Positions 19,168 to 58,470 of a stretch of DNA of 64,000 nucleotides are shown here, in pieces. The stretch covers positions 44,726 to 108,725 of the forward strand of contig JAUYKW010000018.1 of assembly GCA_030698395.1 (NCBI GenBank), given 5' to 3'. The translations under genes and the position numbers were made by a program. A model generated the notes under the pieces. The model searched no databases. It was not told where the DNA came from and worked only from the letters and a program-made list of their open reading frames with translations. The first letter of the stretch is position 1. Each line of letters begins with the position of its first letter. The stretch comes from a bacterium (GTDB taxonomy: Bacteria > Patescibacteriota > Patescibacteriia > UBA9570).

Positions 19168-19172
19168 ATTTT

Positions 19173-40660: not shown

Positions 40661-41710
40661 ATGAAAAAAGCATTACTAATTGGAATCACAGGACAAGACG
40701 GATCTTACTTAGCAGAACTATTATTAGACAAAGGCTATGAAGTTCATGGTACAATGCGGAGATCTAGCCAATTTAATACTGGACGAATTGATCACTTGTA
40801 TAAGGATCCACATTTAAATGGAGTAAGACTTTTTTTACATTATAGTGATTTAACTGATGGAAGTAATTTAGCTAGATTAATTAGAGAAATTAAACCAGAC
40901 GAAATTTATAATTTAGGTGCTCAAAGTCATGTGCGGGTTAGTTTTGATATTCCGGAATATACAGCTATGGTGACTGGATTAGGAACGCTTAAAATTTTAG
41001 ATGCGATTCGCGATGTAAAAAAGGATACAAAGTTTTATCAAGCATCAAGTTCAGAGATGTTTGGTTTAGTACAGGAAGTACCACAAAAAGAAGATACGCC
41101 TTTTTATCCAAGATCACCATATGCAGTGGCTAAAGTTTATTCATACTGGATTACTAGAAATTACCGGGAAGGATATGATCTTTTTGCTAGTAATGGTATT
41201 TTGTTTAATCATGAATCACCCCGACGTGGAGAAACATTCGTAACTAGAAAGATAACCAGAGCTTTATCTAAGATAAAATTGGGCATCGATAAAAAATTGT
41301 ATTTGGGCAACATGGATGCAAAACGTGATTGGGGATATGCTCCTGATTATGTTGAAGCTATGTGGATGATGATGCAACAAGATAAACCAGATGATTATGT
41401 AATAGCAACTGGGGAAACTCATTCAGTGCGAGAGTTTGTAGAAGTTGCTGCAAAATGTTTGGATATTGATGTTATTTGGGAGGGTAAGGGAGTTGATGAG
41501 AAAGGCTATAATAAAAAAACGGGAGAGGAAATTGTTAATATAGATCCTAAATATTTTCGACCAACTGAGGTTGATTTATTAATTGGTGATTATTCCAAAG
41601 CTAAGAAAGATTTAGGTTGGGAACCGAAAGTTACTTTTAAAGAGCTAACTCAAATCATGATAGATGCGGATTACGATTATTATGTACGCGAGAAAGGACA
41701 TATAAAATAG
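40661..41710 (+). CDS. gmd: GDP-mannose 4,6-dehydratase
   Basis: Motifs: [29 protein letters not shown]; [19 protein letters not shown] (catalytic YxxxK); [10 protein letters not shown]. Length 349 aa. Confidence 0.9.
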
Positions 41711-41711
41711 T

Positions 41712-42641
41712 ATGGATAAAAATGATAAAATATATATTGCTGGACACCGAGGATTAGTTGGTAGTGCGATAGTACGAAAGTTGGAAGCAGAGGGTTTTAC
41801 TAACATTATTAAGCGTACTAGAAAAGAATTAGATTTAGTAAATCAAGCAGCCGTTACAGAATTTTTTGCTACTGAAAAACCAGATTATGTATTTTTAGCT
41901 GCAGCTAAAGTAGGTGGCATTAATGCTAACGATATTTATCCTGGTGATTTTATTTATCAGAATTTACAGATTCAGAATAACATTATTAGTAATGCTAAAG
42001 AAGTTGGAGTTAAGAAATTATTGTTTTTAGGCAGTAGCTGTATTTATCCTAAATTGTCTAAGCAGCCAATGAAAGAAGAGTATCTTTTAACAGGAACTTT
42101 AGAGCCAACAAATGAACCGTATGCTATAGCAAAGATTGCTGGTATAAAAATGTGTCAATCATACAATAAACAATATGGGACGAATTTTATCTCTGTGATG
42201 CCGACAAATTTATTTGGTTTTAATGATAACTTTGATTTAGAAAAATCACATGTACTACCAGCATTATTACGAAAAATTTATGAAGCAAAAAAAAATAATC
42301 AATCCACTGTTACGGTTTGGGGAACAGGAAAGCCACGTCGTGAATTTTTGTTTGTTGACGATTTAGCTGATGCAGTTTATTTTTTGATGCAGAACTATGA
42401 TGAGGATGAAATAGTAAATATTGGCACTGGTGAAGATATTATGATTTCAGAGTTAGCAGAATTGATTAAGAAGGTAATAGGTTTTGAAGGCGAAATTGTA
42501 TATGACGCAAGTAAACCTGATGGAACTCCGCGAAAATTATTAGATGTAAGTAAATTAAATGGACTTGGTTGGAAAGCAGATACTTCGCTTGAGGACGGTA
42601 TTAGAAAAACTTTTGAATGGTTTCAGGCTAACTTGCCTTAA
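41712..42641 (+). CDS. fcl: GDP-L-fucose synthase (GDP-4-keto-6-deoxy-D-mannose 3,5-epimerase/4-reductase)
   Basis: The N-terminus [19 protein letters not shown] is typical of this family. Further motifs are catalytic YAIAKIAG and [23 protein letters not shown]. It is immediately downstream of gmd. Confidence 0.9.
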
Positions 42642-42643
42642 AT

Positions 42644-43414
42644 ATGAAGGTATCTATAATTACACCTTCATATAATCAGAAAAATTTTATTGCCCAAACA
42701 ATAGAAAGCGTTATTAATCAGCGTGGTGATTTTGAGTTGGAGTATATTATTATTGATGGTTCATCTACTGATGGATCAATTGATATTATTAAAAAGTATG
42801 CAGCAATGGATGCTAGAATAAAATGGCTTTCTGAAGAGGATCGTGGGCAATCACATGCAATCAATAAAGGATTAAAAATGGCTACTGGTGATATAGTTGC
42901 TTATTTGAATTCGGATGATGTTTATCTAAAAGATGCTTTAAAAAAATTAGTGGCAGAATTTTCCAAACAGAAAGACTTAAAATGGTTATATGGTGGTTGT
43001 AATATCATAGATGAATCTGGAGATGAAACACGAGGCATAATAACAAAATATAAAGAGTGGCTAGGAAAAAAATATTCGTATAACAAACTATTAGTAGTGA
43101 ATTTTATTAGCCAGCCAGCAGTTTTTTGGCGACGGGATTTATTAGATGAAATTGGATTTATCAATGAAGATGAGCACTTAGTTATGGATTATGAATATTG
43201 GTGCAGACTTGGCAAGAAGTACCAACCTTATAAGCTAACAGATAACATAGCTGCGTTTCGTTCGTATACTGATAATAAAAGTAGCCAAGGTTTTGTAAAG
43301 CAATTTAAGCGAGAAGCACAAATAGCTAAAAAATATTCCAATAGTTTTATATTAAACATTTTGCATTTGATACACGTAGGAGGAATAATTATGATTTATA
43401 AAATAATTTCTTAG
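42644..43414 (+). CDS. GT2 family glycosyltransferase
   Basis: Motifs: VSIITPSYNQKNFI; IIIDGSSTDGS; YLNSDD (DxD). Confidence 0.8.
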   Translation: MKVSIITPSYNQKNFIAQTIESVINQRGDFELEYIIIDGSSTDGSIDIIKKYAAMDARIKWLSEEDRGQSHAINKGLKMATGDIVAYLNSDDVYLKDALKKLVAEFSKQKDLKWLYGGCNIIDESGDETRGIITKYKEWLGKKYSYNKLLVVNFISQPAVFWRRDLLDEIGFINEDEHLVMDYEYWCRLGKKYQPYKLTDNIAAFRSYTDNKSSQGFVKQFKREAQIAKKYSNSFILNILHLIHVGGIIMIYKIIS

Positions 43415-44578: not shown

Positions 44579-46554
44579 CTATCTGGCGTATTTATTTTTT
44601 TGGTACCGTATATTGTACGGTATTTTTTGTGATTGAATTTGTAGAGCATCCATTGTGTTCGGTTGCCAATTCTCTGTTCATCTACTTTGGTAAATGCTAA
44701 AGGGTATTTATCTAATACCTTGTAAAATTCTTGGAGATCTTTTTGATTATTACTATTATTTAGGATCCAGTAATAATTAATTCCATTTTTACGTAACTTA
44801 TTTGTGAGTAGTTCATTTGGTTTGATGGTGAAATATCTTTGTTGGTAATTTGTGTCGAATGTTCTAATAAGGGCTACAGCGTGATTATTACGAATTTGTA
44901 TATCTGAGGAATAGTATTGAGTTTCATAGAAATGAGCATTACTAGCTATTAAACCATTATTAGATGCATTTTTTAATGAGTCTGTAGCGGTAGGTGCGCC
45001 ATAATCATATCCGTAAGTTGCTAAGGACAACTTGTTATTAAAATAAAAAGGAGCCATTTTTAAACAGAGTAAGGTAATTATTATTAATCCGAGGATGGGG
45101 TATTTCTGTTTGAGTTTTATCTTTGGGAATAATATGACTCCTATTAAGAGAATCACAAAAAGTGCAATAAAAATTATCGGTTTATAAGTTAATAGAGTTG
45201 CAAGAAATGAGGCATTTGCTAGTGCACTACCATATACAAGATCTTTGATATCAAACCAATACAAAATTACAAAAAATATAAATACTGATGAAAATATAAT
45301 TGATTGTCGTTTGGAGAATTTTGTTAGTATTTGGCGAGCGGCGAGAAATGTAAAGTAAATAATACAAACTAATATTGGCAATGTAACTCGGAAACCAATA
45401 ATGCTTTCAGCCTCATGATAATTCAGATAAACGAATACGAGGAGTAATGTCATCATTACAATGTCTGGTCGTATTTTACTATAATGTTTTTTAAAATTGT
45501 TAAATATTCGCTTTGCACTTATCCAAATCCCTAGAGATGTTAAAGGTAAAATAAAAATATTTAAATCTTGCTCGGAAAAATTATAAGAATAAATCAACCA
45601 AAGTTTTTGAAAGAAGTTAGCAGGTGCGCGTTGAATTTGAGATTCAACTAATCCTGTTGGAATTTCTCTTGAGTATTCCGCAATAGCAATTTTAGATTGG
45701 CTTAATTCACTTATTAGTGGAGTATCAGATGGGCTAAGAGAAAGAATTTGATCCAGCACAGAAAAAATAAGTTTGTTGATGAAAATGTATATATCACCAA
45801 ATACAAAACGAAGAAGATTTTCATATAAGCGGGGATATGGCAACATGTTAAAATCTAGTAATAGTATCGTTGCAATAAAAGTAGGGAAGGCAATTATTAA
45901 AGATTCTTTTATGATATATAATATTTTATATGATATTTCTTTATTTATTTTCCAAGAGTCTAGTATAGTAATTGTAAAAATCATTGGAGCAGCCAGCAAC
46001 AAATAGTAATCTTTTATCAACATTAGCAACAATAGGCCAAGACCAATTTGATATGCTTTGGCTTTTTTTGCCAGTAAGTAGACTAGGAAAGTAAATGCAA
46101 AAGTTGCTGGAATGTCTAGCATTAAACGAACCGAGAATATCCAAAAACCTGGAATTAGTAATAAGATAAAAAGAAACCACTTGCGTCTTTCCTTTTTAAT
46201 GTCTAAATGATTAGTAAGTAAATAAAGGGATATTATAAATCCAGCAGCGAAGATAAAAATTGGAATTCTATATTCAGTTAGAGTCTGAGGATTTGTGATT
46301 AGATTGTATAAAAATGCTACAAACGCCACTAAAAATGTATGCTCTGTATTAATGTTATACCAGGAAATTTCTCCATTAAATGCACCTTTGAAAGCGTTAA
46401 CAATGTTTGCATAGATATACTCATCAGGTGTGGGCCATATCCAGTTATTTAAAAGGGCAAGAAATATTAAGGAAAATAATAAAAAAAATATCAAGGTAGA
46501 ATGTTGTTTGAGGAATTTTACTAGTTGTTGTATTATCTTCATTTTATATCTCAC
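44575..46554 (-). CDS. GT-C-fold membrane glycosyltransferase (PMT/ArnT, GT39/GT83-like)
   Basis: It is 659 aa with about 12 TM helices. The first loop carries WPTPDEYIYANIV, matching the DE-x-Y catalytic motif of PMT/ArnT-type polyprenyl-phosphate-sugar-dependent transferases. The C-terminal soluble domain is about 160 aa. Confidence 0.6.
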   Translation of the reverse strand: MRYKMKIIQQLVKFLKQHSTLIFFLLFSLIFLALLNNWIWPTPDEYIYANIVNAFKGAFNGEISWYNINTEHTFLVAFVAFLYNLITNPQTLTEYRIPIFIFAAGFIISLYLLTNHLDIKKERRKWFLFILLLIPGFWIFSVRLMLDIPATFAFTFLVYLLAKKAKAYQIGLGLLLLMLIKDYYLLLAAPMIFTITILDSWKINKEISYKILYIIKESLIIAFPTFIATILLLDFNMLPYPRLYENLLRFVFGDIYIFINKLIFSVLDQILSLSPSDTPLISELSQSKIAIAEYSREIPTGLVESQIQRAPANFFQKLWLIYSYNFSEQDLNIFILPLTSLGIWISAKRIFNNFKKHYSKIRPDIVMMTLLLVFVYLNYHEAESIIGFRVTLPILVCIIYFTFLAARQILTKFSKRQSIIFSSVFIFFVILYWFDIKDLVYGSALANASFLATLLTYKPIIFIALFVILLIGVILFPKIKLKQKYPILGLIIITLLCLKMAPFYFNNKLSLATYGYDYGAPTATDSLKNASNNGLIASNAHFYETQYYSSDIQIRNNHAVALIRTFDTNYQQRYFTIKPNELLTNKLRKNGINYYWILNNSNNQKDLQEFYKVLDKYPLAFTKVDEQRIGNRTQWMLYKFNHKKYRTIYGTKKINTPDS

Positions 46555-46586: not shown

Positions 46587-47450
46587 TTATCTCACCAATT
46601 TGAACGGGGATAGAATAGCTACTTTTGTAATTTTTATAGCATGAAATCCAATAAGTAGGACAATATGCTTTATTTTGTAGTATTGGTTGGGACAATTCTT
46701 TAATAAATATTTAATCATATAAATCATATTGCTGTGTGATTTTATATGAAAGGCATCATCAAAAGCTTGTTTGAGAGTTGGGTTTTTTATCCTAGATTCA
46801 ATTCCTGATTTAATCCCAGTATCGTGAGAAACAGCATCATAAGATACCACCATTTTAAAACCAGCCCTTTTTACTTGCAGAAAAAAATCATAATCTGATA
46901 GATAATGGGGAAAGCGTTTATAATCAAAGGCAACTTTAGAAAAAACTTCTATCGGTAGGAGCGTGAATCTGCCTGTCATTACATCAATCTGTCCATCATA
47001 AACACCATTTTCTTGAATTGGTATCAGAGGATATGTTCTGGTTTTCCATTTAGCTACATGCCCGCCACTAATTATTTTTCCCGTGGAATTTTTTATTGCT
47101 GCAGCAACGACAGCTCTATTATACTTCAAGCTAGTTTGATAGCAGATTTCTAAAGCATCTTTTTCTGGAAAGTGATCATTGTTAGCAAACAGAATGAAAT
47201 CTTCCGGTTGAGCTTCTTTTTTTATATACTCAACCCCCATAGCCATGGTTCTTGTCCAGAAAACGTCACCCTTAGTAGATAGTATTTTTACTTTTGGAAA
47301 ATGTTTTTTTATTGCTTCAACCGAACCATCTGTTGAAGCATCATCAACTACCACAATTTCAAAATCTTGCATTGTTTGGCTATAAATTTTTTCTATAAAC
47401 TTGAGCGTAGTGTCTCGACGATTATAAATGGCTGTTAATACATAAATCAT
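46587..47450 (-). CDS. GT2 family glycosyltransferase
   Basis: Motifs: YVLTAIYNRRDTTLKFI; VVVDDASTDGS; FANNDH. Confidence 0.75.
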   Translation of the reverse strand: MIYVLTAIYNRRDTTLKFIEKIYSQTMQDFEIVVVDDASTDGSVEAIKKHFPKVKILSTKGDVFWTRTMAMGVEYIKKEAQPEDFILFANNDHFPEKDALEICYQTSLKYNRAVVAAAIKNSTGKIISGGHVAKWKTRTYPLIPIQENGVYDGQIDVMTGRFTLLPIEVFSKVAFDYKRFPHYLSDYDFFLQVKRAGFKMVVSYDAVSHDTGIKSGIESRIKNPTLKQAFDDAFHIKSHSNMIYMIKYLLKNCPNQYYKIKHIVLLIGFHAIKITKVAILSPFKLVR

Positions 47451-48721: not shown

Positions 48722-49573
48722 TTGTCACACAGCTATATTTTCAGTATAATATCGACAACTTTATATAACTCCAAATTCAACTGCATGAGCCTCATTTCGC
48801 ATCTAGCAACAGTTGCAAAGCCAAGTAATGTTTTGGAAAGCATTAAGAGTATCAAGTTATCGTCCCAATATTCGATTAAGGGGGACTATAAACGGATATA
48901 TCTATATCATATTCGAAAAACTGGTGGAACAAGCTTAAACCACATGTTTTTATCTCTAGGTGGTAGAGATGGCAGAGATGTTTATCGAGAGATGATGCAA
49001 AAGCCTAATCATCGAATAATTAGTAGCAATAAGGTATTTGCTGGTTTTAACCACAGTATAATTAAAAGGGGTAATTATTATTATGCTTTTTCTCATGAGC
49101 CAATGCATGAAGTTGTGATTCCTGATAAAACCTTTACTGTTACTTGTGTACGAGATCCCTTAGAAAGAGTTGTGTCTCATTATAAAATGTTGATTGAAAT
49201 GAAACAGGATAATGCAAAACATCCGGGAATGCAAAAACAAAGTAAATGGCTAGGAAATAGTTTTGAAGATTTTTTAAAGAATATTCCAAAAAAGTTTTTA
49301 TTAAATCAGTTATACATGTTTTCAAAGGAATATAGTATAGACGAAGCTACTACTAATATTGTATCTTGTTCACATTTTTTCTTCACAGAAAATTTTTCGC
49401 AAGGTGTTGCTGGGTTATCCGATAAGTTAGGAATTCAACTGCAAGCTCTTCATACTCGTAAGACCCCAAGTAGCATTATGGTTACAGAAAAAGAGCAAGA
49501 TCAGCTACGAGAAATGTTGGAACCTGAATATATTTTATATAAAAAATTATCACAAATAAAAGAATCAGCTTAA
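48722..49573 (+). CDS. Sulfotransferase (carbohydrate-sulfotransferase-like, Sulfotransfer_2-type)
   Basis: A 5'-phosphosulfate-binding loop is present (YLYHIRKTGGTSLNHMF). A 3'-phosphate-binding motif is present (TCVRDPLERVVSHYKML, RDPxxRxxS). The true start may be an internal Met. Confidence 0.6.
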   Translation: MSHSYIFSIISTTLYNSKFNCMSLISHLATVAKPSNVLESIKSIKLSSQYSIKGDYKRIYLYHIRKTGGTSLNHMFLSLGGRDGRDVYREMMQKPNHRIISSNKVFAGFNHSIIKRGNYYYAFSHEPMHEVVIPDKTFTVTCVRDPLERVVSHYKMLIEMKQDNAKHPGMQKQSKWLGNSFEDFLKNIPKKFLLNQLYMFSKEYSIDEATTNIVSCSHFFFTENFSQGVAGLSDKLGIQLQALHTRKTPSSIMVTEKEQDQLREMLEPEYILYKKLSQIKESA

Positions 49574-49575
49574 TT

Positions 49576-50316
49576 ATGAATGTTTTTAATATACCCTCAG
49601 TTATTTGGAAGAGAGTTAATAACAAAGTATATGGTTTACTAGGTAAAGATCCATTAACCAAGGAGAAAATTTATCAAGTTAAGACTGAACGAATCGGTAC
49701 AAATTATGGTGGCTGGGTGATTCCAGCAAATTATCTAACTAAAGATTCAGTTTGTTATTGTGCAGGCGTTGGTGAAGATGTTAGTTTTGATTTGGGTATA
49801 ATTAAAAAATATGTTTGTAAAGTTTATGCTTTTGATCCTACGCCACGCGCGCAAGAATACATAGAGAAAAATGTTGAGCCAGATCCAAATTTTGTTTTTG
49901 TGGACGTTGGTTTATGGGATGAAGACACCACCATGAAGTTTTATTCTCCAAAAAATCCAGATCATGTCTCACATTCGATTGTGAATCTACAGAAAACTGA
50001 TACTTATTTTGAAGCAAAGGTAAAAAGATTATCGACTATTATGAGAGAGTTACAGCATGATAAATTATCTTTATTAAAGTTAGACATTGAAGGTGCTGAG
50101 TATAAAGTGTTAGATTCTTTAGTAGATGATAAGGTTGATATTGATATATTATGTATCGAATTTGATGAGGGGCATACTAAAATGGACAATGATTATAAAT
50201 CTCGAATCAAAGGATCGTTAGAAAAACTTTTTGCCATGGGTTACGTGATGATAGATGTTGATCAGAGTTGTAATTACACCTTGATTAAAGAGAATATGTT
50301 AAGAGAATTGGCTTAG
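49576..50316 (+). CDS. FkbM-family methyltransferase
   Basis: The signature SLLKLDIEGAEYKVLDS is typical of FkbM. The SAM-binding region is CYCAGVGEDVSFDLG. Length 246 aa. Confidence 0.75.
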   Translation: MNVFNIPSVIWKRVNNKVYGLLGKDPLTKEKIYQVKTERIGTNYGGWVIPANYLTKDSVCYCAGVGEDVSFDLGIIKKYVCKVYAFDPTPRAQEYIEKNVEPDPNFVFVDVGLWDEDTTMKFYSPKNPDHVSHSIVNLQKTDTYFEAKVKRLSTIMRELQHDKLSLLKLDIEGAEYKVLDSLVDDKVDIDILCIEFDEGHTKMDNDYKSRIKGSLEKLFAMGYVMIDVDQSCNYTLIKENMLRELA

Positions 50317-50319
50317 AGC

Positions 50320-51570
50320 ATGAAAGTTGCACAGTTGAGTACAATGGATATCAAAGGAGGTGGCGGTTCTATGGCCGCCTATCGCTTGCATACTGCTTTG
50401 CGTGCTAACAATGTAGATTCTTCACTATTGGTAAAATTCAAATATAGTGATGATAAAAATGTAATCGGTAAACATCCGACTAACGAGTTAGTAAGAAAAA
50501 TTAGTTCGTTCAGTTCATTTATGGATGAAATTCCTGGTAAATTTTCTAACTCGCCTGATACGGTGTATCGTTCGAGTGCATGGTATCCGGATGGTGTGGC
50601 ACGAAAGTTAAAAGAGTTGAATCCTGACGTAATAAATCTACATTGGATTAATGGTGGCTTTGTGCGATTGGAATCTCTTGCTAAGTGGCAAGGGTCAATT
50701 GTATGGACGATGCATGATATGTGGGCATTTTGTGGCACAGAGCATTACACTAGTGATCAACGTTATCAAGAGGGATATTTAAAAACAAATCGACCAGCTG
50801 GAGAATCTGGATTTGATGTAAATCGTTGGACGTGGCAACGAAAACAAAAGGCATGGTCTACACTAACTGATCTAGTTGTAGTAACACCTAGTAAGTGGTT
50901 AGCAAGTTGTGTTCGAAAAAGTGTATTGTTCAAGAATTATCGAATTGAAGTAATTCCAAATAGTGTTAACCAAGAAATTTTTAAACCACAAGAAAAGATT
51001 GTGTTACGAAAGAAACATAATATAAATCCACAGAGTAAACTTATTTTGTTTGGCGCTGGAAATACTGCTAGTCCAAGAAAGGGAGTGGATTTACTAAAAA
51101 AAGCATTAAAAAAATTAAGTGTTAATGCTACACATAATTATATTGAGTTAGTAGTTTTTGGTAAGTATCAGCCAGAGGATTACAGTGATATTAATTTACC
51201 AATTAAGCATTTAGGTCATGTTGCTGGAGAGTCTGAGATTGCAGAAATATATTCTATGGCCGATGTATTTGTTGCTCCGTCCCGCCAAGATAATCTACCA
51301 AATACAATTGTAGAGGCTTTAGCTTGTGGAACACCATGTGTGGCATTTAATATTGGCGGCATGCCAGATATGATTGATCATCAAAATAATGGGTATTTAG
51401 CTAAAGCATTTGATGTGGATGAATTAGCTGCTGGAATTGTTTGGGTATTGGAAGATAAAGAACGATGGCAGAAGCTTTCTAGTCAATCTAGAATTAAGGC
51501 TGAAAATAATTATACATATTCAGAGCAAGCAAAAAAATATAGTGAACTTTATCAAAGCATCACTGTTTAA
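50320..51570 (+). CDS. GT4 (group 1) glycosyltransferase
   Basis: Motifs: VAQLSTMDIKGGGGS; C-terminal RQDNLPNTIVEALACGTPCVAFNIGGMPDMI (E-x7-E). Confidence 0.8.
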   Translation: MKVAQLSTMDIKGGGGSMAAYRLHTALRANNVDSSLLVKFKYSDDKNVIGKHPTNELVRKISSFSSFMDEIPGKFSNSPDTVYRSSAWYPDGVARKLKELNPDVINLHWINGGFVRLESLAKWQGSIVWTMHDMWAFCGTEHYTSDQRYQEGYLKTNRPAGESGFDVNRWTWQRKQKAWSTLTDLVVVTPSKWLASCVRKSVLFKNYRIEVIPNSVNQEIFKPQEKIVLRKKHNINPQSKLILFGAGNTASPRKGVDLLKKALKKLSVNATHNYIELVVFGKYQPEDYSDINLPIKHLGHVAGESEIAEIYSMADVFVAPSRQDNLPNTIVEALACGTPCVAFNIGGMPDMIDHQNNGYLAKAFDVDELAAGIVWVLEDKERWQKLSSQSRIKAENNYTYSEQAKKYSELYQSITV

Positions 51571-51582
51571 GGAGTTGTCTTT

Positions 51583-52479
51583 TTATTGACCTGCCTTATA
51601 TATAGCGTATCGATCAGCTAACCAATTTTGGGGAGATTGTTTTTTTGGTTGGAGTTTAGCTAGCTCGGATAAGATAGATTCAATATTATATCCAAGGAGG
51701 GATAATTTTTCTGAGTCTAATGAACGTAGATATTTTTTTGCGTACTGTATACGTAAATTTGTATTGAATGTAGTTTTCCATTTTTCTAATGACTTATTCT
51801 GTACCTGTTTTTCTTTAGCTATATAGGGATCTCCCATGGTGCCATGAAGTTTTTCTTTTTGAATATTTTGGATCATATTTGAATTGAATGGTATTTCTAG
51901 ATAGTTACAAATCTTCTCTGTAACTTCGCTTGATTTTTCTACTAACTCTTCATATTTAATTAATATACTTTTTTCTTTCAGCAATTCATATCCATCACTC
52001 AGGAGATGTGGACCTTCATACAGATCTGTATTTGAAGGTTTTACATTTAATTTACCAAAGTTCCATGTTTCAATCACTGAAGCTAATGTTGCCAAAGGAT
52101 TTCTGCCTAAAAAAATAAATTTTGCCTCAGGAAATAATTTTGCTATTTCTGGAATAATAAAATAGTAACGAGGAGTTTTATCAAGAAAATATTTTTCATT
52201 GTCACAAGCTGAACTATATATGTCAGTGACAAATTCTTTTAATGACTTATCATAAGAAAACATTTTTTTTGGAAGTTCTGAAAAAAAATCTTGTAGCGCT
52301 TGACGACAAACTTCCTTATCGTAATCTACTGTTAGATCATTTTGTTTTTTTGGATATAGGAGTGGTAACAATATCCATGGTTCAGATACAGAACAAATTT
52401 CTGGATGAGACATTAATATTTTCTGCAGTAAAGTTGAACCAGAACGAGGTGTGGAAAAGAGGAAGATTAAATTATCCAT
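51583..52479 (-). CDS. Sulfotransferase (Sulfotransfer_3-type, PAPS-dependent)
   Basis: Motifs: 5'-PSB loop FLFSTPRSGSTLLQKIL; 3'-PB region FIFLGRNPLATLASV. Length 298 aa. Confidence 0.7.
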   Translation of the reverse strand: MDNLIFLFSTPRSGSTLLQKILMSHPEICSVSEPWILLPLLYPKKQNDLTVDYDKEVCRQALQDFFSELPKKMFSYDKSLKEFVTDIYSSACDNEKYFLDKTPRYYFIIPEIAKLFPEAKFIFLGRNPLATLASVIETWNFGKLNVKPSNTDLYEGPHLLSDGYELLKEKSILIKYEELVEKSSEVTEKICNYLEIPFNSNMIQNIQKEKLHGTMGDPYIAKEKQVQNKSLEKWKTTFNTNLRIQYAKKYLRSLDSEKLSLLGYNIESILSELAKLQPKKQSPQNWLADRYAIYKAGQ

Positions 52480-53491
52480 TTTTTCTAATTAATTTGCTAT
52501 AAGCTAGAGCTAACATATCTTGAAGTTGAGTTTTTTTACAAGAAATTATTCTTCGACGTAAATCATTTGGTATTACTTGCTGAATATCATCTTGCTCATT
52601 TAATTCTTGTATTTCAGCAACATAATCTTTATTTTTTTCGTAGAGTATATCAGCGTATTCTGTTCTATCAGATAGCTTTGGATTATTATGTTCCTCAGGC
52701 CACTTTAAAAGTTGTTCTTGCAATTTAAAATAAAGTTTAACTTTTTCACTAGTTCGTAAACCATTAGTCCCAATTGGATGCCATGGGTGTGCCGTGTATG
52801 TGTCTGTAAGTACAGCTCCTTTGCTGTTAGCGGCCATTTCCAATCTGATACTGACATCTTCTCCAATTTTGGATAGAGAAGTACTCCAAAGAGGATTAGT
52901 GTCATATCCTTCTATTATATCCCAATACTTTCTTGCCGCGGATATCATTGGTCCAAAATTTCGGCGGGGTGGAAATAATTCAGGTTGTCTATATTTTGTT
53001 GGGCAAGTTGCTAGCACAGATGCTAGATCGTTGTTAGCATTTTGCCATTCCTTAAAGGATGCCCCAGCTGGGTATTGAGCCATTCTACGAAACGCATTAA
53101 ATACTTTGTACTTTCCTTGTTGATGATGCTTTGTTAGCACAGTTAGAAAGTCTTTAGGTAGAAGTTGATCTCCATCCATTACTGAAATTATATCGCCTTG
53201 AGATGCCGCTATGCCAGCATTATTACATTTTGATAAGTGATAAGCTTCAGTATTAACATTCTCGTCCAAATAAATTATCTTGATATTCATTTGGTCTTTA
53301 ACTTCTTTATGGCGATCGAACAGCGATTTTAATCCCTTTTTGTGATTATACTTATCGGCAAATTCACGGCTTCTTTGTTCAACATAAATAAGTTCAAAAT
53401 TATTCCTAGGGAAATCTTGATTTAGTAGACCATTAATTAGATGAAAAAAATTACGATAACTCGAGTCCCAACTAATGATAGAGTGTAACAT
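52472..53491 (-). CDS. GT-A-fold glycosyltransferase-like protein (GT2-related)
   Basis: It has ISVMDGDQLLP (DxD-like) after a Rossmann-like N-terminus. Length 339 aa. No close named family was recognised. Confidence 0.5.
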   Translation of the reverse strand: MLHSIISWDSSYRNFFHLINGLLNQDFPRNNFELIYVEQRSREFADKYNHKKGLKSLFDRHKEVKDQMNIKIIYLDENVNTEAYHLSKCNNAGIAASQGDIISVMDGDQLLPKDFLTVLTKHHQQGKYKVFNAFRRMAQYPAGASFKEWQNANNDLASVLATCPTKYRQPELFPPRRNFGPMISAARKYWDIIEGYDTNPLWSTSLSKIGEDVSIRLEMAANSKGAVLTDTYTAHPWHPIGTNGLRTSEKVKLYFKLQEQLLKWPEEHNNPKLSDRTEYADILYEKNKDYVAEIQELNEQDDIQQVIPNDLRRRIISCKKTQLQDMLALAYSKLIRKNG

Positions 53492-53495
53492 ATAG

Positions 53496-54467
53496 TTATT
53501 TTATATCAGTCAACCAAGCTCTTACAAGTTTGATTTCGTCGTTGGATACAAATCCATTTTTATGAAGAGCAGTGTAAACAATTTCTAAGTTTTTCAATAA
53601 ATCTTTACCTAGTTTTATATTTTGAAGTAATTCAATGATTGGTTTAGTGTTTTGATATACTTCAACTTCATCAGCAAAATCTTTCATTAAGTTGTGAGCA
53701 TTTCTTTCTTGGTAAACAGTTGCCTCAGTAAAACCTAAATGCATGCCATGTAGCCACATAATATGTTGTGCCAGATAACCTCTTAGAATATCAGTAAATC
53801 TAAAACTAACAGTTGCGGGGAGATATAATAATGGAAATGCTTTTTTTTGCCAGAAAGTATTTTGCGAATTAAACGGACAGTAACACTTTTTTGGTAAATG
53901 AATACTTTTTTTTCGATCGAATTTGGTAGTGTCGTTAAAGACTAAGCGATAAATGGCATCAACATCTGGATCTGTATCAGCTAAACCTTGCCATGCTCCA
54001 ATACTAGTTAATTTAGAATGTTGTTTTAACTTGCTCTTATTTTTTGTTTGAATGAGGTCTAACGGGTATCCTCGTGGCCAAATTAATTTCTTTGAAAAGT
54101 AATTGTATACATTATAATATTTGTCTTTTGTCTCTATACTTCTTTTGCTAGTAAAATCTGGACACTTCCAATGTTTGTATGGCAGATTGTCGTCATCTGT
54201 ATCATAGATAATATCTGCTCCTTGACGCATTGCATAAATATACCCGATGTTTTTTCTAGTATAGTGGTTATAAGGACTGTAGCGAACAAATTCGTAGCCT
54301 AGTTTTTTTTGATCTTGAACTGAAAGGAAGGTTAAGTTTTTTGAACTTTTAATTTGTGGAGTTTTTTTATCTCCAACAAGAACAACGTGCCAATCTGGAA
54401 TTTTTTCAAAAGCTTTTACCGCTTTAGTTCTGTCGTTAATGCTAGTTATGACTATGAATTTTTTCAT
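53496..54467 (-). CDS. GT75/RGP-like (DUF288/STELLO-like) protein; possible nucleotide-sugar mutase or glycosyltransferase
   Basis: It has KFIVITSINDRT...WHVVLVGDKKTPQI...RKNIGYIYAMRQGADIIYDTDDDNLPY. This parallels the RGP/UDP-arabinopyranose-mutase pattern (IV.T.R......W......H.I.V.DGD....I...........R..GY........YI...DDDC.P). Confidence 0.45.
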   Translation of the reverse strand: MKKFIVITSINDRTKAVKAFEKIPDWHVVLVGDKKTPQIKSSKNLTFLSVQDQKKLGYEFVRYSPYNHYTRKNIGYIYAMRQGADIIYDTDDDNLPYKHWKCPDFTSKRSIETKDKYYNVYNYFSKKLIWPRGYPLDLIQTKNKSKLKQHSKLTSIGAWQGLADTDPDVDAIYRLVFNDTTKFDRKKSIHLPKKCYCPFNSQNTFWQKKAFPLLYLPATVSFRFTDILRGYLAQHIMWLHGMHLGFTEATVYQERNAHNLMKDFADEVEVYQNTKPIIELLQNIKLGKDLLKNLEIVYTALHKNGFVSNDEIKLVRAWLTDIK

Positions 54468-55675
54468 GATAGTTGCGTAATTTTATAATCAGTTGGAGGA
54501 CAAGATCCTAAGACATCTCTGCGCGACACAATAAAAGGATCAATTACACTAGTTGGTTGCATTTCAAAGAATAATAATTGTGGACGGTAAAAAATTCCTG
54601 TATCAAGCAGTCCCAGCCCTAAGCTAATGCTGTAATTTCCGGGTGGAAGATTTGTATCTTCAGCAGAAATTTCAAGTTTATGTTTTCCTTTAGGAATGGC
54701 ATCTATTTTTGCTGTAACTGTCATGATGCGTGCTAACTGACTGTTAAATATTTGGATACCAACTCTAATATTATTGAGTTCTTTATCGGTGTTATTAGTT
54801 ACTAGCAACTCTGTAATCAGAGGCTTGCTGTACTGCATTTGGGACAATCTAATTTGTTCAATAGTAAAGTTTTTGATTTTTGTATCAAACGGACCAGTTC
54901 CTGATTCTTGAGAATTTGTCAGGCGTAGATATTCTTGAACAGCTTTGTCTGTATCTGCGATCGTTACAATTTTTCCTTGATTCAGCACAACGCATGATTT
55001 ACATAAGCTTTGAATTGCTCCCATATTGTGGCTAACAAAAATGATAGTGCGACCATCTTCTTTTGTTACTTCATCCATTTTGCCAAGGCACTTTTTTTGA
55101 AACTGGGTATCACCAACAGCTAGTACTTCATCTACTAAAAGAATCTCTGGTTCTAGATGGGCAGCTACAGCAAATGCTAAACGCACGCGCATCCCACTAG
55201 AATATCTTTTTACTGGGGTGTCTAAGAATTTTTCTACTTCTGCGAATTCAACAATTTCATCAAACTTTTTTGAGATTTCTCTTTTTGTCATGCCCAATAC
55301 AGCTCCATTTAGAAATACATTTTCTCGGCCAGTTAATTCTGGATGAAATCCAGTGCCAACTTCCAATAAGCTAGCAACTCTGCCACGTAAAGTTATTTTA
55401 CCAGTGGTTGGTGATGTGATGCGGGACAATACTTTTAATAGGGTACTTTTACCAGCTCCGTTACTACCGATTAATCCTATTACTTCACCTTTCTCTATAG
55501 AAAAATTTATATCTTTAAGTGCCCAGAATGTTTCTCGATGGGATTCTTTGTTTGTGAACCATTTTTTTGGATTTAAAGATTTAGCAATTACATCACGTAA
55601 AGCTACATAGGGTTCCATTTCCCCTAGTTGATATTGTTTTGAAATATTTTCAGCTAGAATTACAGGTTTGGACAT
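54464..55675 (-). CDS. wzt: ABC exporter ATP-binding protein, Wzt/TagH type, with a C-terminal substrate-binding beta-domain
   Basis: Motifs: Walker A GSNGAGKST; signature SSGMRVRLAFAVA; Walker B LLVDEVLAVGD. An extra non-ATPase domain of about 150 aa follows, as in O-antigen Wzt proteins. Confidence 0.85.
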   Translation of the reverse strand: MSKPVILAENISKQYQLGEMEPYVALRDVIAKSLNPKKWFTNKESHRETFWALKDINFSIEKGEVIGLIGSNGAGKSTLLKVLSRITSPTTGKITLRGRVASLLEVGTGFHPELTGRENVFLNGAVLGMTKREISKKFDEIVEFAEVEKFLDTPVKRYSSGMRVRLAFAVAAHLEPEILLVDEVLAVGDTQFQKKCLGKMDEVTKEDGRTIIFVSHNMGAIQSLCKSCVVLNQGKIVTIADTDKAVQEYLRLTNSQESGTGPFDTKIKNFTIEQIRLSQMQYSKPLITELLVTNNTDKELNNIRVGIQIFNSQLARIMTVTAKIDAIPKGKHKLEISAEDTNLPPGNYSISLGLGLLDTGIFYRPQLLFFEMQPTSVIDPFIVSRRDVLGSCPPTDYKITQLS

Positions 55676-55679
55676 AATT

Positions 55680-56501
55680 TTATACTACATCTGCGAACTT
55701 TTGTTCGGTTTTACGGAAATAAAATAAGCCTACAATAAATAACAATATTGAAATACCTATAGACATGGCTAGACTTTCTAGATTAATTGGCGTATTTCCA
55801 ATAATGATGGCACGAGCGTTTTCAATTACACCAGACATTGGATTAAGATTTAGAATCCATTGGTATTTCTCGCCAGCAATTTTTGCGGGATAAATTACGG
55901 GTGTTAAAAAAAGTAGCATTTGAATAAAAAACGGAATAATATATCGGACATCACGATATTTTACATTTACTGCTGATAGAAATAATCCCATACCTAAACT
56001 AGTGAAGTAGGTAATGAGAATCAATATTGGAATAAGAAATAGACTAATTGGTTTAGGGACGAATTGATAATAAAACATCATGGCACAGAGGATGGAGCTG
56101 GCAATTAAGAAATCAATAAAAGCAACAATTACTGTTGATGATGGTAATATTAATCTTGGAAAATAGATTTTTTTGATCATCTCTTGATCAGATACTAAGC
56201 TACCGCTAGCACTTGATAGTGCTTGTGAGAAAAAGAGCCAGAAAACTAAACCAACATAAACAAATATTGGATATGGAGCACCGCTAGAATCTATTTGAGC
56301 TAGGTTTCCAAAAAAGACTGTAAAAATTACCATACTTATGATAGGTACAAAAAAAGCCCACAATATTCCAATGGCTGTTTGTTTGTATCTTACTTTTACA
56401 TCTCTAAGTGCAAGAAAGTAAAAGAGATCTTTATATTGGAGCATTTCCCGGAAGTCTATCCGTAGCCAGCTACGTTTTGGTAGGATAATTGTTTCTTTCA
56501 T
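55680..56501 (-). CDS. wzm: ABC-2 exporter permease, Wzm/TagG type
   Basis: It is 273 aa with six TM helices. The N-terminus (ETIILPKRSWLRIDFREMLQYKDLFYFLALRDVKVRYKQTAIGILWAF) is typical of polysaccharide ABC-2 permeases. It is immediately upstream of wzt. Confidence 0.85.
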   Translation of the reverse strand: MKETIILPKRSWLRIDFREMLQYKDLFYFLALRDVKVRYKQTAIGILWAFFVPIISMVIFTVFFGNLAQIDSSGAPYPIFVYVGLVFWLFFSQALSSASGSLVSDQEMIKKIYFPRLILPSSTVIVAFIDFLIASSILCAMMFYYQFVPKPISLFLIPILILITYFTSLGMGLFLSAVNVKYRDVRYIIPFFIQMLLFLTPVIYPAKIAGEKYQWILNLNPMSGVIENARAIIIGNTPINLESLAMSIGISILLFIVGLFYFRKTEQKFADVV

Positions 56502-56575
56502 TTACGAAGAATATTTATAATTGAGCAGGCATACTCTACTATTTTTAAGGGTATAAGTCAACAAGTTTTATTAGT

Positions 56576-57586
56576 CTATGCTTTTTCCAGAAATACAATA
56601 AAGCTCTCTCCTTTGCCGGCTTTATCGCGTATCCGCCATGCTGGAATGGTGAAGTAACTATTCAATAATGCTAGAACTCTCAAACTGAATTCTTTGAAAC
56701 TTAAGTATTTAATATATTCTAATGTATTCATGTTCTTAGGACGCGGTTGCCAGATGGTTTCTTTGTTTCCCAGTGATACTCGTTCTTTTTTATTGGTAAG
56801 ATATTGTAATGCAACCCAACCCATTGGAGTGGTAGTTTCGGATTTAAGAACTTTGAATCCAGTTTCTTTAGCCAGAACATTTATACTTTTTTGTGAAAAA
56901 AAATTTACGTGATATGGAATGTGCCAGTTAATCCATTTTTTTTCGGTTCGCTTTGCATTTGCACTTTCTATATTTGGTGTACTAAGAATTATTTTACCAC
57001 CAACCTTTAATTTTTTTGATATTTTGATTAAAAAATCTTTAGGATCAGGTATATGTTCTATTAACTGACTCATTGTGATGAAATCAAAGAAATCATCAGG
57101 GTAAGGCATTGTGTCTATGTCGCCAAAATGTATTTCTAAATTTAGTTCGTCTGCAATTGGTTTTATATTTTTATCTAGTTCTGTTCCGTATGCATCACCA
57201 CCAAGTTTAGTAATTTCTAAAAGAGATACTCCGTTTCCGCAACCTATATCCAAAACTTTGCTACCAGCAGTTATATAACTATGACATTTATTTTTTTCTC
57301 CTTGTAGATTGTTTTTGTCGCTATTTGGTTTTCTAGAGAAATTATCAGCAGTTGCTTTTACATCATCAGCAGTCATTGCTTTTCTGGGATAATAATCTGT
57401 ATAAATACTTTCTAATACTTCACTAGATGGAATTGGGTTAATTTCAGCAAAGTTACATGATGAACATTTATTCACTGAGTATTGTTCAGGGTATCCATAA
57501 CGATCATCATGCATTTCATTGTACAGGAGTGTCGTCGGAGATTTGCATATTTTGCAGTATAATACTGCATTTTCTTCACTTAGCAT
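56576..57586 (-). CDS. Class I SAM-dependent methyltransferase with an N-terminal Cys4 zinc-ribbon
   Basis: The N-terminus has CKICKS...CSSCNF. Motif I is VLDIGCGNGVSLLEI. Length 336 aa. It is co-oriented with wzm-wzt. Confidence 0.7.
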   Translation of the reverse strand: MLSEENAVLYCKICKSPTTLLYNEMHDDRYGYPEQYSVNKCSSCNFAEINPIPSSEVLESIYTDYYPRKAMTADDVKATADNFSRKPNSDKNNLQGEKNKCHSYITAGSKVLDIGCGNGVSLLEITKLGGDAYGTELDKNIKPIADELNLEIHFGDIDTMPYPDDFFDFITMSQLIEHIPDPKDFLIKISKKLKVGGKIILSTPNIESANAKRTEKKWINWHIPYHVNFFSQKSINVLAKETGFKVLKSETTTPMGWVALQYLTNKKERVSLGNKETIWQPRPKNMNTLEYIKYLSFKEFSLRVLALLNSYFTIPAWRIRDKAGKGESFIVFLEKA

Positions 57587-57816: not shown

Positions 57817-58470
57817 ATGATACAACACTATGAACTTATGTTCATTATACCTGGTTCTATTGATGCGGCTGCAGTTAAGCCCGTTCAGGAGCGAGTATTT
57901 GAACTAATCAAGCAAGCTAACGCTACTATGTCTAGTCAGTATGACATGGGACGGCGAAAATTAGCATACAAAATTAAACAGCAAACATATGGCCATTACT
58001 ATGTGTTGCAGTTTGATGCAGAAGCAGAAGTAATAAAAGATTTGGATACTAAATTACGACTCGATCACGAGATTTTGCGTTATATGTTAGTTAAGGGAAA
58101 GCCTTTGACTAATGAACAATTGAAAGCGATGATTGAGGAGCCAGAAAAGGAAGAAGTGGAACCGGCAGAGGAAATGAGCGACATATCAGGCGCACTCCCT
58201 GCGGAGCCACAGGTGCAAGTACAACCAGTTGTAAAATCTGCAACAGAGGTTAAGGTTGAAGCAGAGCCTGTTACAGAAGTAGCAGAGCCAGAAACTGTAA
58301 CAACTGAAGTTGTGGAAGAATCTATTGTTACAGAGGTTGCTGAACCAGAAGTAGCGGAATCAACTCCAACTCCAGAATCAGAGGTTATGAAATCAAAATT
58401 AACTATGGAAGAACTGGATAAAAAATTGGAAGATATTCTAGGTGATACTGATTTAGAATCACAATTATAA
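57817..58470 (+). CDS. rpsF: 30S ribosomal protein S6 with a long acidic C-terminal extension
   Basis: The N-terminus MIQHYELMFIIPGS...GRRKLAYKI is S6. The C-terminal roughly 110 aa are E/P/V/T-rich repeats (EVAEPE..., VTEVAEPE). Confidence 0.85.
   Translation: MIQHYELMFIIPGSIDAAAVKPVQERVFELIKQANATMSSQYDMGRRKLAYKIKQQTYGHYYVLQFDAEAEVIKDLDTKLRLDHEILRYMLVKGKPLTNEQLKAMIEEPEKEEVEPAEEMSDISGALPAEPQVQVQPVVKSATEVKVEAEPVTEVAEPETVTTEVVEESIVTEVAEPEVAESTPTPESEVMKSKLTMEELDKKLEDILGDTDLESQL

What the first reader, a model, noticed from the sequence alone, without database searches (positions are those of the whole stretch)
54464..57586. Wzm-Wzt exporter with an extended Wzt C-terminal domain and an adjacent zinc-ribbon SAM methyltransferase: a possible chain-terminator cap system
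In the E. coli O8/O9a and Klebsiella ABC-transporter-dependent O-antigen pathways, chain length is set by a terminator enzyme (WbdD) that methylates or phosphomethylates the non-reducing end. The Wzt C-terminal carbohydrate-binding module recognises that cap. Here Wzt carries an extra roughly 150-aa C-terminal beta-rich domain. The gene directly upstream of wzm on the same strand is a SAM methyltransferase with an N-terminal Cys4 ribbon. The FkbM methyltransferase and sulfotransferases in the same locus could alternatively provide the terminal cap. A sulfate cap, if that is the case, would be unprecedented as an export signal.
Basis: established knowledge. Interest (0 to 1): 0.5.

Follow-up and report, generated by a model that had tools for sequence, protein, structure and literature searches.

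The report
Glycan exporter likely reading a sulfate cap
This is a sugar-polymer export pump whose built-in "reader" domain belongs to a rare subgroup that, across unrelated bacteria, nearly always sits next to sulfate-adding enzymes, which suggests that a sulfate tag, not the proposed methyl tag, licenses export.

Summary
On the minus strand, 54464-57586 encodes a Cys4 zinc-ribbon SAM methyltransferase, Wzm, and a 403-aa Wzt with a ~150-aa all-beta C-terminal domain. That domain models confidently (pLDDT 90.5). Its best structural matches are the solved Wzt carbohydrate-binding domains of A. aeolicus, R. terrigena O12 and E. coli O9a. A CBD-gated exporter is therefore supported, and it is a common, known architecture.

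The proposed cap enzyme is not supported. The methyltransferase is not WbdD-like: it has no kinase and no coiled coil, and its closest structure is the NDP-sugar methyltransferase TcaB9. Its family is coupled to a ~290-aa GT2 in 73 of 78 loci. Wzt proteins next to its homologues carry unrelated CBDs.

The window's CBD subfamily instead tracks sulfotransferases. Eleven of 12 external loci with this CBD type have one or more sulfotransferases just downstream of wzt. None of 27 control Wzt loci does (Fisher p = 7e-9). Two of the 11 loci have no methyltransferase at all.

It rests only on comparative genomics. The closest CBD relative lacks a sulfotransferase, no PAPS-synthesis genes lie in the window, and terminal versus internal sulfation is unresolved.

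The parts
56576..57586 (-). Zinc-ribbon (Cys4) class I SAM methyltransferase, 336 aa. It belongs to a widespread, uncharacterised family of about 320 aa with DDRYG and WxxWHxPxH motifs.
55680..56501 (-). Wzm, the ABC-2 permease of the glycan exporter.
   Evidence: ABC2_membrane, E 1e-18. Best NCBIfam hits are the galactan and KpsM permeases.
54926..55675 (-). Wzt nucleotide-binding domain (aa 1-250).
   Evidence: ABC_tran, E 3e-25. Best PDB sequence match is A. aeolicus WzmWzt 8dku/7k2t, E 1e-68.
54464..54925 (-). Wzt C-terminal carbohydrate-binding domain (aa 251-403) plus the stop codon. It belongs to a rare, divergent CBD subfamily that is linked to sulfotransferases.
   Evidence: Pfam Wzt_C is below threshold (21.9 vs 30.4 bits). 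Only 29 representatives among 1.84 billion proteins. AF2 pLDDT 90.5. Foldseek top hits are the Wzt CBDs 8dky, 6o14, 5hno and 2r5o. Context association is shown.
53496..54467 (-). STELLO-like putative glycosyltransferase. Its start overlaps the wzt stop by 4 nt.
   Evidence: PF03385, E 1.4e-14. A homologue lies directly after wzt in L083, L085, L086 and L087, and one is also present in L001.
52472..53491 (-). Divergent GT2-like protein, 339 aa.
   Evidence: Glycos_transf_2, E 1.6e-7. Homologues occur in the sulfotransferase-rich loci L091 and L094.
51583..52479 (-). Sulfotransferase (Sulfotransfer_3, distantly NoeE-like). It is the last gene of the exporter operon and overlaps the preceding gene by 8 nt.
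   Evidence: PF13469, 108.6 bits against a cutoff of 27. NoeE, E 6.5e-24. The motifs TPRSGST and RNPLATLAS can be read from the translation.
50320..51570 (+). GT4 glycosyltransferase, convergent with the exporter operon.
   Evidence: Glycos_transf_1, E 2e-30.
49576..50316 (+). FkbM-family methyltransferase, an alternative candidate for a methyl cap.
   Evidence: Methyltransf_21, 53.3 bits against 22.7. TIGR01444, 64 bits against 37.7.
48722..49573 (+). Second sulfotransferase (Sulfotransfer_2).
   Evidence: PF03567, 35.6 bits against 22. The motifs RKTGGTS and RDPLERVVS can be read from the translation.
46587..47450 (-). GT2 of the ~290-aa family that partners with the zinc-ribbon methyltransferase elsewhere. 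Here it lies about 9 kb from the methyltransferase gene.
   Evidence: 70 BLAST hits to the partner cluster, best 40% identity. Glycos_transf_2, E 5e-19.
42644..43414 (+). Second GT2 that falls in the same partner cluster.
   Evidence: 42 hits to the partner cluster, best 50% identity.
40661..42641 (+). GDP-mannose 4,6-dehydratase and GDP-L-fucose synthase, which supply GDP-L-fucose.
   Evidence: TIGR01472, 577 bits against 415. NF047922, 511.7 bits against 500.

Best explanation
This is an ABC-transporter-dependent glycan pathway in a probable Patescibacteria-type genome. A lipid-linked polymer is completed and chemically decorated in the cytoplasm. Wzm-Wzt then exports it, but only after the Wzt C-terminal carbohydrate-binding domain has recognised a finishing mark. 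The most likely mark is a sulfated non-reducing-end sugar, possibly a fucose that is also O-methylated. The operon's PAPS-dependent sulfotransferase(s) would install it. The zinc-ribbon methyltransferase is best read as a glycan O-methyltransferase that works with a GT2 partner, as an add-a-sugar-and-methylate-it module like WsaE. It is not a WbdD-type terminator or molecular ruler.

Shown: the gene identities, the CBD fold, the coupling of the methyltransferase family to a GT2, and the co-variation of this CBD clade with sulfotransferases.

Inferred: that the CBD gates export, that sulfate is part of the epitope it reads, and that the sulfate is terminal.
For: CBD fold:
- The AF2 model has pLDDT 90.5.
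- All top Foldseek hits are solved Wzt CBDs, including 8dky bound to 3-O-methyl-mannose.
- The subfamily profile hits the A. aeolicus CBD at E 1.4e-5.

Established precedent:
- Every studied terminated polymer has a CBD-bearing Wzt, and only capped chains are exported (PMC11231755; PMC9445017).

Sulfotransferase link:
- Eleven of 12 external loci with this CBD type carry Pfam-confirmed sulfotransferases 0-5 genes after wzt.
- None of 27 Wzt loci with other CBDs does, and none of 53 further loci does. Fisher p = 7e-9.
- NBD identity to the window overlaps between the two groups: 59-67% against 45-66%. The CBD type, not overall relatedness, tracks sulfotransferases.
- The sulfotransferases span three Pfam families and at least seven BLAST families, in differing gene orders. 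This argues against a single inherited operon.
- L090 and L091 have sulfotransferases beside wzt but no methyltransferase.

In the window:
- The window sulfotransferase is translationally coupled into the wzm-wzt operon.
- Both window sulfotransferases keep the PAPS-binding motifs.
- GDP-fucose genes are present, and GT10/GT11 fucosyltransferases recur in sister loci.
- CBDs of this clade are less acidic than control CBDs (weak evidence).
Against: - No biochemical evidence exists, and the polymer structure is unknown.
- The closest CBD relative (L092, 36.6% identity) has no sulfotransferase within 10 kb.
- No PAPS-synthesis genes lie in the 64-kb window.
- Several sulfotransferases per locus could mean sulfation of internal repeat units. 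The CBD might then read some other feature shared by these glycans.
- Some sister loci are clearly the same operon (L085/L086, L089/L090, L083/L087), so there are only about 8 independent observations.
- The control loci were chosen because they contain the methyltransferase family. They are not a random sample.
Confidence: 0.45

Rival explanations
1. The zinc-ribbon methyltransferase O-methylates the non-reducing terminal sugar. This stops elongation and creates the cap that the Wzt CBD reads.
For: The methyltransferase gene sits directly upstream of wzm on the same strand. Homologues lie within 10 kb of a CBD-bearing Wzt in about 27-29 of 80 loci, sometimes immediately after wzt (L073, L081) or as a GT2-methyltransferase fusion after wzt (L021). 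Methyl caps made by stand-alone or GT-fused methyltransferases are known: the P. syringae TET operon (PMC7820976) and WsaE (PMC2943079). The best structural match of the CBD binds a 3-O-methyl sugar.
Against: Wzt proteins next to homologues of this methyltransferase have CBDs with no detectable similarity to the window's CBD, even where the NBDs are up to 66% identical. Only 1 of 12 loci with the window-type CBD has this methyltransferase family, and two have no methyltransferase at all. The family's near-universal partner is a GT2, not Wzt (73 of 78 loci). It also occurs in Rhizobium loci with nonulosonic-acid genes and no wzt. It has no WbdD similarity, no kinase and no coiled coil.
Confidence: 0.2
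2. The FkbM-family methyltransferase (49576-50316) makes a methyl cap, analogous to V. cholerae RfbT. Sulfation would then be a separate decoration.
For: FkbM (Methyltransf_21) genes recur downstream of wzt in loci with the window-type CBD: L083, L084 and L089. In L001 an RfbT-like FkbM gene directly follows wzt. From my own knowledge, RfbT methylates the terminal perosamine of an O antigen made by the ABC-transporter-dependent pathway.
Against: FkbM is absent from most loci of the CBD clade (L085-L088 and L090-L094). In L001 it occurs with a different CBD type. In the window it is on the opposite strand, outside the exporter operon.
Confidence: 0.1
3. The CBD recognises a feature that is not sulfate, such as a terminal fucose or another sugar epitope common to these polymers. 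Sulfate and methyl groups would be internal decorations with no role in export.
For: Fucosyltransferases or GDP-fucose genes recur in the clade. Several sulfotransferases per locus fit repeat-unit sulfation. L092 keeps the CBD type without a sulfotransferase. Sulfated repeat units are known in marine bacteria (PMC11641403).
Against: Fucosyltransferases are found in only about half of the loci, whereas sulfotransferases are in 11 of 12. Every characterised Wzt CBD reads a non-reducing-end modification, not the plain repeat unit (PMC9445017, PMC11231755).
Confidence: 0.2
4. The zinc-ribbon methyltransferase acts on a nucleotide-sugar precursor, as TcaB9, KijD1 and MtmC do, and not on the polymer. 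It would then be irrelevant to capping.
Against: There is no Pfam hit to the family's Methyltransf_13 or Methyltransf_14 domains. The C-terminal sugar-nucleotide-binding domain of TcaB9 is not matched (222 of 336 residues aligned). Sequence similarity is confined to the generic methyltransferase core (E about 1e-6). Tight translational coupling and fusion to a GT2 fit action on the transferred sugar better.
Confidence: 0.15

Closest known systems
Aquifex aeolicus WzmWzt with its carbohydrate-binding domain (PDB 7k2t, 8dku, 8dky, 6o14)
   Same: The Wzt has the same length and architecture. It is the best sequence match in the PDB (E 1e-68), the best structural match for the CBD (TM about 0.6), and the only PDB CBD that the subfamily profile detects.
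   Different: The CBDs are only 19-20% identical. The methyl-pocket residues of A. aeolicus (Leu300, Thr346, Ala348, Trp362; PMC9445017) are not conserved in the profile alignment. The A. aeolicus CBD reads a 3-O-methyl cap, whereas this clade is linked to sulfotransferases.
E. coli O9a/O8 and K. pneumoniae O3/O5 WbdD-Wzt termination-export coupling
   Same: The concept is the same: a cytoplasmic terminal modification is read by the Wzt CBD before export. The CBD fold matches 2r5o.
   Different: The window has no WbdD homologue, no kinase, no coiled-coil ruler and no evident polymerase-recruitment region. Chain-length control by a ruler is therefore not expected.
P. syringae TET operon and P. 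aeruginosa CPA (PA5457/PA5459) stand-alone methyltransferases
   Same: A small stand-alone SAM methyltransferase is encoded beside wzm-wzt(CBD). Methyltransferase-glycosyltransferase fusions occur in some strains (PMC7820976), as I saw for L021.
   Different: I could not test homology between those methyltransferases and the zinc-ribbon family. Those loci are not reported to carry sulfotransferases.
Geobacillus stearothermophilus S-layer glycan pathway (wzm-wzt-wsaE)
   Same: It is an ABC-transporter-dependent glycan in a cell without LPS. A methyltransferase domain is joined to rhamnosyltransferase domains and makes a 2-O-methyl cap (PMC2943079). This parallels the methyltransferase + GT2 module here.
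   Different: WsaE is a single trifunctional protein. The window has no recognisable oligosaccharyltransferase of the WsaB type. Instead it has several large GT-C-like membrane proteins.
Rhizobial NoeE and other PAPS-dependent carbohydrate sulfotransferases; sulfated marine polysaccharides
   Same: The operon sulfotransferase is a distant NoeE relative (E 6.5e-24). Sulfotransferases in polysaccharide gene clusters mark sulfated polymers (PMC11641403).
   Different: In none of those systems is sulfate proposed as the signal read by an exporter. Those clusters carry cysNDC genes for PAPS synthesis, which the window lacks.

Membership tests
Wzm-Wzt glycan ABC exporter | An ABC-2 permease gene next to an ABC ATPase gene of the Wzt/TagH type | tested here: met
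   ABC2_membrane, E 1e-18, and ABC_tran, E 3e-25. The top PDB hits are WzmWzt, TarGH and mycobacterial Wzm-Wzt. The two genes are 4 nt apart.
Wzt carbohydrate-binding domain (Pfam Wzt_C, PF14524) | A score above the Pfam gathering threshold | tested here: not met
   21.9 bits against a cutoff of 30.4, E 1.8e-4, covering aa 291-373. The domain is a divergent subfamily.
Wzt carbohydrate-binding domain (Pfam Wzt_C, PF14524) | A beta-sandwich (jelly-roll) fold that superposes on solved Wzt CBDs | tested here: met
   AF2 pLDDT 90.5. Foldseek ranks 1-13 are A. aeolicus and R. terrigena Wzt CBDs, with 2r5o at rank 19. TM 0.50-0.64.
Wzt carbohydrate-binding domain (Pfam Wzt_C, PF14524) | Sequence homology to a characterised CBD | tested here: met
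   The profile of the subfamily hits the A. aeolicus CBD at E 1.4e-5 and nothing else in the PDB.
Wzt carbohydrate-binding domain (Pfam Wzt_C, PF14524) | Binds the non-reducing terminal modification and is required for export | not testable with these tools
   This needs binding assays or genetics.
WbdD-type chain terminator | A methyltransferase domain homologous to WbdD | tested here: not met
WbdD-type chain terminator | A kinase domain (O9a/O3 type) | tested here: not met
   Only methyltransferase families hit the protein.
WbdD-type chain terminator | An extended coiled-coil molecular ruler | tested here: not met
   In the AF2 model the longest helices are about 16 residues.
TcaB9/TylC3-type NDP-hexose C-methyltransferases | An N-terminal Cys4 zinc domain followed by a SAM methyltransferase core | tested here: met
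TcaB9/TylC3-type NDP-hexose C-methyltransferases | The family-specific Pfam domains (Methyltransf_13 and Methyltransf_14) and the C-terminal sugar-nucleotide-binding domain | tested here: not met
   No such Pfam hits at E<=0.01. Profile similarity is limited to core positions 98-244.
PAPS-dependent sulfotransferases | A Pfam sulfotransferase domain above threshold, with the 5'-PSB and 3'-PB motifs | tested here: met
   Sulfotransfer_3, 108.6 bits against 27, and Sulfotransfer_2, 35.6 bits against 22. The motifs were read from the translations.
PAPS-dependent sulfotransferases | A PAPS supply (ATP sulfurylase and APS kinase) in the genome | tested here: inconclusive
   None is present in the 64-kb window. 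The rest of the genome was not available.
FkbM/RfbT methyltransferases | A Methyltransf_21 domain above threshold | tested here: met
   53.3 bits against 22.7, and TIGR01444 at 64 bits against 37.7.

The most novel reading that the evidence does not exclude
A distinct clade of Wzt carbohydrate-binding domains has specialised to read a sulfated non-reducing-end sugar. It is found in Patescibacteria-like, Nitrospinales, probable Bacteroidota and other lineages. Sulfation would then join methyl, methyl-phosphate and Kdo as a chain-finishing and export-licensing cap in ABC-transporter-dependent glycan assembly. In the window organism this would operate in a probable monoderm that has no LPS.
Probability: 0.4. 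Interest if true: 0.75.

Novelty: new variant of a known kind. Interest (0 to 1): 0.55.

Why it matters
The known export-licensing caps in ABC-transporter-dependent glycan assembly are methyl, methyl-phosphate and Kdo. A sulfate-reading CBD clade would add a new chemical class of cap. It would give a sequence marker for predicting sulfated surface glycans directly from genomes: this CBD type, with conserved N311, S312, R316, R385/R386 and D387. It would also offer a small soluble domain that could be developed as a reagent for binding sulfated sugars. In addition, it points to elaborate, quality-controlled surface glycan synthesis in candidate-phyla-radiation bacteria, whose envelopes are largely unknown.

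Separately, the zinc-ribbon methyltransferase + GT2 pair is a very widespread, uncharacterised two-gene module that deserves biochemical study.

Tried and rejected
2. **Rhizobium anchor.** I looked for an experimentally characterised Rhizobium relative, the R. etli wre methyltransferases. Two literature searches and one DOI look-up gave nothing usable. The Rhizobium loci carry NeuB/PseG-like genes and no wzt.
3. **Metagenome scan with the full CBD alignment.** It failed because the alignment had no conserved stretch. A reduced alignment returned only three loci.
4. **Pocket mapping.** I tried to map the A. aeolicus methyl-pocket residues onto the window CBD. Only a low-confidence profile alignment was possible, because model coordinates are not exposed.
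5. **Promoter and terminator scan of the operon.** Counts were at chance level and gave no information.
6. **CBD net charge as a proxy for anion binding.** There is a trend (p = 0.005), but it weakens with a broader sequence set (p = 0.06). I treat it as weak evidence.
7. **PAPS genes in the window.** None were found.
8. **Literature on sulfate and Wzt CBDs.** Nothing was found in the held library. That library omits most papers from subscription journals.

Full report
**1. Observation**

- a methyltransferase at 56576-57586 (336 aa)
- wzm at 55680-56501 (273 aa)
- wzt at 54464-55675 (403 aa)

Pfam assigns ABC2_membrane to Wzm, ABC_tran (aa 53-184) to Wzt, and Methyltransf_23/11 to the methyltransferase.

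The operon continues downstream with tight coupling:
- A STELLO-like glycosyltransferase (53496-54467) overlaps the wzt stop codon by 4 nt.
- A divergent GT2 follows at 52472-53491.
- A Sulfotransfer_3 gene (51583-52479) overlaps the GT2 by 8 nt.

On the other strand lie a GT4, an FkbM methyltransferase and a Sulfotransfer_2 gene (48722-51570).

The source is a 112.9-kb MAG contig labelled only "bacterium" (Wzt MDP3970739.1). The nearest relatives of several genes are from Kerfeldbacteria and other Patescibacteria, and GC content is about 34%. A candidate-phyla-radiation organism is therefore likely. This is an inference.

**2. The Wzt C-terminal domain is a genuine Wzt carbohydrate-binding domain (CBD), but a rare kind**

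At the sequence level, Pfam Wzt_C scores below its threshold (21.9 vs 30.4 bits). An exhaustive search of 1.84 billion representative proteins with aa 255-403 found only 29 relatives at E<=1e-3.

AlphaFold2 with a 22-sequence alignment gave a confident all-beta model (pLDDT 90.5). Its best Foldseek matches in the PDB are all solved Wzt CBDs:
- A. aeolicus: 8dky (bound to 3-O-methyl-mannose) and 6o14, TM about 0.6
- R. terrigena O12: 5hno and 5hnp
- E. coli O9a: 2r5o

A profile of the subfamily detects the A. aeolicus CBD at E 1.4e-5 and nothing else in the PDB.

The extended Wzt architecture itself is ordinary: thousands of homologues are 400-430 aa long, and most carry PF14524. In every studied system a CBD-bearing Wzt exports only chains that carry a non-reducing-end cap (PMC11231755; PMC9445017).

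**3. The zinc-ribbon methyltransferase**

The four cysteines (C11, C14, C41, C44) are invariant in 42 homologues, as are a DDRYG motif and a WxxWHxPxH motif. The GenBank model starts at M25 and removes the first CxxC. An independent gene call gives the full 336 aa.

The AF2 model is very confident (pLDDT 94.7) and has no long coiled coil. Comparisons with known structures gave the following:
- The TcaB9-family Pfam domains and its C-terminal substrate domain are not matched.

Eighty loci from a genome-collection scan show the family's real partner. A GT2 of about 290 aa is present in 73 of 78 loci. It lies directly downstream, usually with overlapping stop and start codons, in 40 of 69 same-strand cases. 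In one Woesebacteria locus it is fused to the methyltransferase as a 643-aa GT2-methyltransferase protein immediately after wzt.

In the window, two members of that GT2 family lie 9-14 kb away (46587-47450 and 42644-43414).

A Wzt gene is within 10 kb in only about 27-29 of the 80 loci. Rhizobium members instead sit beside nonulosonic-acid genes.

The family therefore looks like a general module that adds a sugar and methylates it. It is comparable to the methyltransferase-glycosyltransferase enzyme WsaE (PMC2943079) and to the methyltransferase-glycosyltransferase fusions of the P. syringae TET operon (PMC7820976). It does not look like a dedicated WbdD-like terminator.

**4. The cap reader and the proposed cap writer do not co-vary**

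The Wzt proteins encoded next to homologues of this methyltransferase have NBDs 45-66% identical to the window's. Their CBDs show no detectable similarity to the window's CBD (BLASTP E>1).

**5. What does co-vary with this CBD type: sulfotransferases**

I fetched the genomic context of every Wzt with a window-type CBD that I could reach. Nine loci came from exact-protein look-ups and three from a metagenome scan. They are L083-L094.

- **Main result.** Eleven of the 12 loci carry one to four sulfotransferases 0-5 genes downstream of wzt. Pfam confirms them all. This includes a 1.8-kb contig whose only other gene is a sulfotransferase.
- **Controls.** An iterative search seeded with ten diverse sulfotransferases, plus a motif scan, found none in the 27 control Wzt loci or in the other 53 methyltransferase-family loci. 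Fisher's exact p = 7e-9.
- **Not explained by overall relatedness.** NBD identity to the window overlaps between the two groups: 59-67% against 45-66%.
- **Not a single inherited operon.** The sulfotransferases belong to three Pfam families and at least seven BLAST-level families, in different gene orders. Some pairs (L085/L086, L089/L090, L083/L087) are clearly the same operon, so I count about eight independent architectures.
- **Methyl is not the common factor.** L090 and L091 have sulfotransferases adjacent to wzt and no methyltransferase in the fetched region. Only L083 carries the zinc-ribbon methyltransferase family.
- **Other recurring neighbours.** These are a STELLO-like gene directly after wzt, FkbM or DUF268 methyltransferases, and GT10/GT11 fucosyltransferases. 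The window itself encodes GDP-mannose dehydratase and GDP-fucose synthase, both above the NCBIfam cutoffs. Its operon sulfotransferase is a distant relative of NoeE.
- **Conserved residues of the clade.** They include N311, S312, R316 (K/R in 91%), R385/R386 and D387.
- **Charge.** The clade's CBDs are on average less acidic than the controls. This is weak evidence.

**6. Caveats**

- The closest CBD relative (L092, 36.6% identity, a similar CPR-type locus) has no sulfotransferase within 10 kb. The gene after its wzt is a 1,089-aa GT-C-like membrane protein.
- The window has no PAPS-synthesis genes.
- Several sulfotransferases per locus fit internal sulfation as well as a cap.
- The control set was defined by presence of the methyltransferase family. 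It is not a random sample.
- I could not inspect model coordinates to locate a sulfate pocket.
- Literature searches found no report linking sulfate to a Wzt CBD, but the library is incomplete.

**7. Mechanism proposed**

Shown:
- gene identities
- the CBD fold
- coupling of the methyltransferase family to a GT2
- co-variation of the CBD clade with sulfotransferases

Inferred:
1. The polymer is assembled on a lipid carrier in the cytoplasm by the GT2 and GT4 enzymes, using GDP-fucose and other precursors.
2. It is methylated and sulfated in the cytoplasm.
3. The CBD binds the finished non-reducing end, whose distinguishing element is most likely a sulfate ester.
4. Wzm-Wzt then exports it.
5. 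The several GT-C-like membrane proteins, the DPM1-like synthases and GtrA in the cluster act outside the membrane.

With no coiled-coil protein present, chain length is more likely set by competition between elongation and capping than by a molecular ruler.

**8. Verdict**

The general idea of a cap-gated exporter is supported and is a known kind of system. The specific candidate, the zinc-ribbon methyltransferase as terminator, is not supported. It would be a new variant of the known termination-export coupling. I put about 0.4-0.45 on it.

Noticed in passing
window 57515-57586 (minus strand; N-terminal 24 codons of the methyltransferase): The GenBank gene model (MDP3970741.1, 312 aa) starts at M25. 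It omits the first CxxC of a Cys4 motif that is invariant in 42 homologues. The 336-aa ORF is the likely true product.
   Followed up: yes
L003-L082; window 46587-47450 and 42644-43414: The zinc-ribbon methyltransferase family is almost always paired with a GT2 of about 290 aa (73 of 78 loci). The GT2 is often translationally coupled and is once fused to it (L021, 643 aa). This widespread two-gene module has no characterised member that I could find.
   Followed up: partly
window 18331-19985 (minus strand): A second ABC-2 exporter pair is present: a 278-aa permease and a 270-aa ATPase with no C-terminal domain. It is DrrAB-like by NCBIfam and lies next to phosphoglucomutase and iPGM genes.
   Followed up: partly
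window 28962-30827, 32181-33440, 37815-39383, 44575-46554: The glycan cluster holds four large polytopic membrane proteins. One is GT87-like and three have no Pfam hit. They are probably GT-C glycosyltransferases acting outside the membrane. A relative of the 659-aa protein forms the C-terminal half of a 1,089-aa protein directly after wzt in L092.
   Followed up: partly
protein P0242, aa 725-2150: A 2,513-aa protein carries 16 tandem copies, with a 92-aa period, of a segment about 35% identical to CBD aa 64-109 (Wzt aa 314-359). A piece of this CBD-like beta-sandwich has been reused as a repeat.
   Followed up: no
window 57817-58470: Ribosomal protein S6 is 217 aa long. It has an acidic, proline- and valine-rich C-terminal extension of about 120 aa beyond the Pfam S6 domain (aa 4-93).
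   Followed up: no
window 35497-36636: A 379-aa protein with UPF0020 and N6_N4 methylase-type domains, typical of nucleic-acid methyltransferases, sits inside the glycan gene cluster.
   Followed up: no
L089 and L090, genes upstream of wzm: In two sister loci, two proteins of about 690 aa with PKD repeats and a Por_Secre_tail (a type IX secretion signal) lie directly upstream of wzm-wzt-sulfotransferase. This suggests a Bacteroidota origin and a possible link to secreted surface proteins.
   Followed up: no
L091 13682-14611: A sulfatase-family gene lies within a wzt locus that carries four sulfotransferase-like genes.
   Followed up: no
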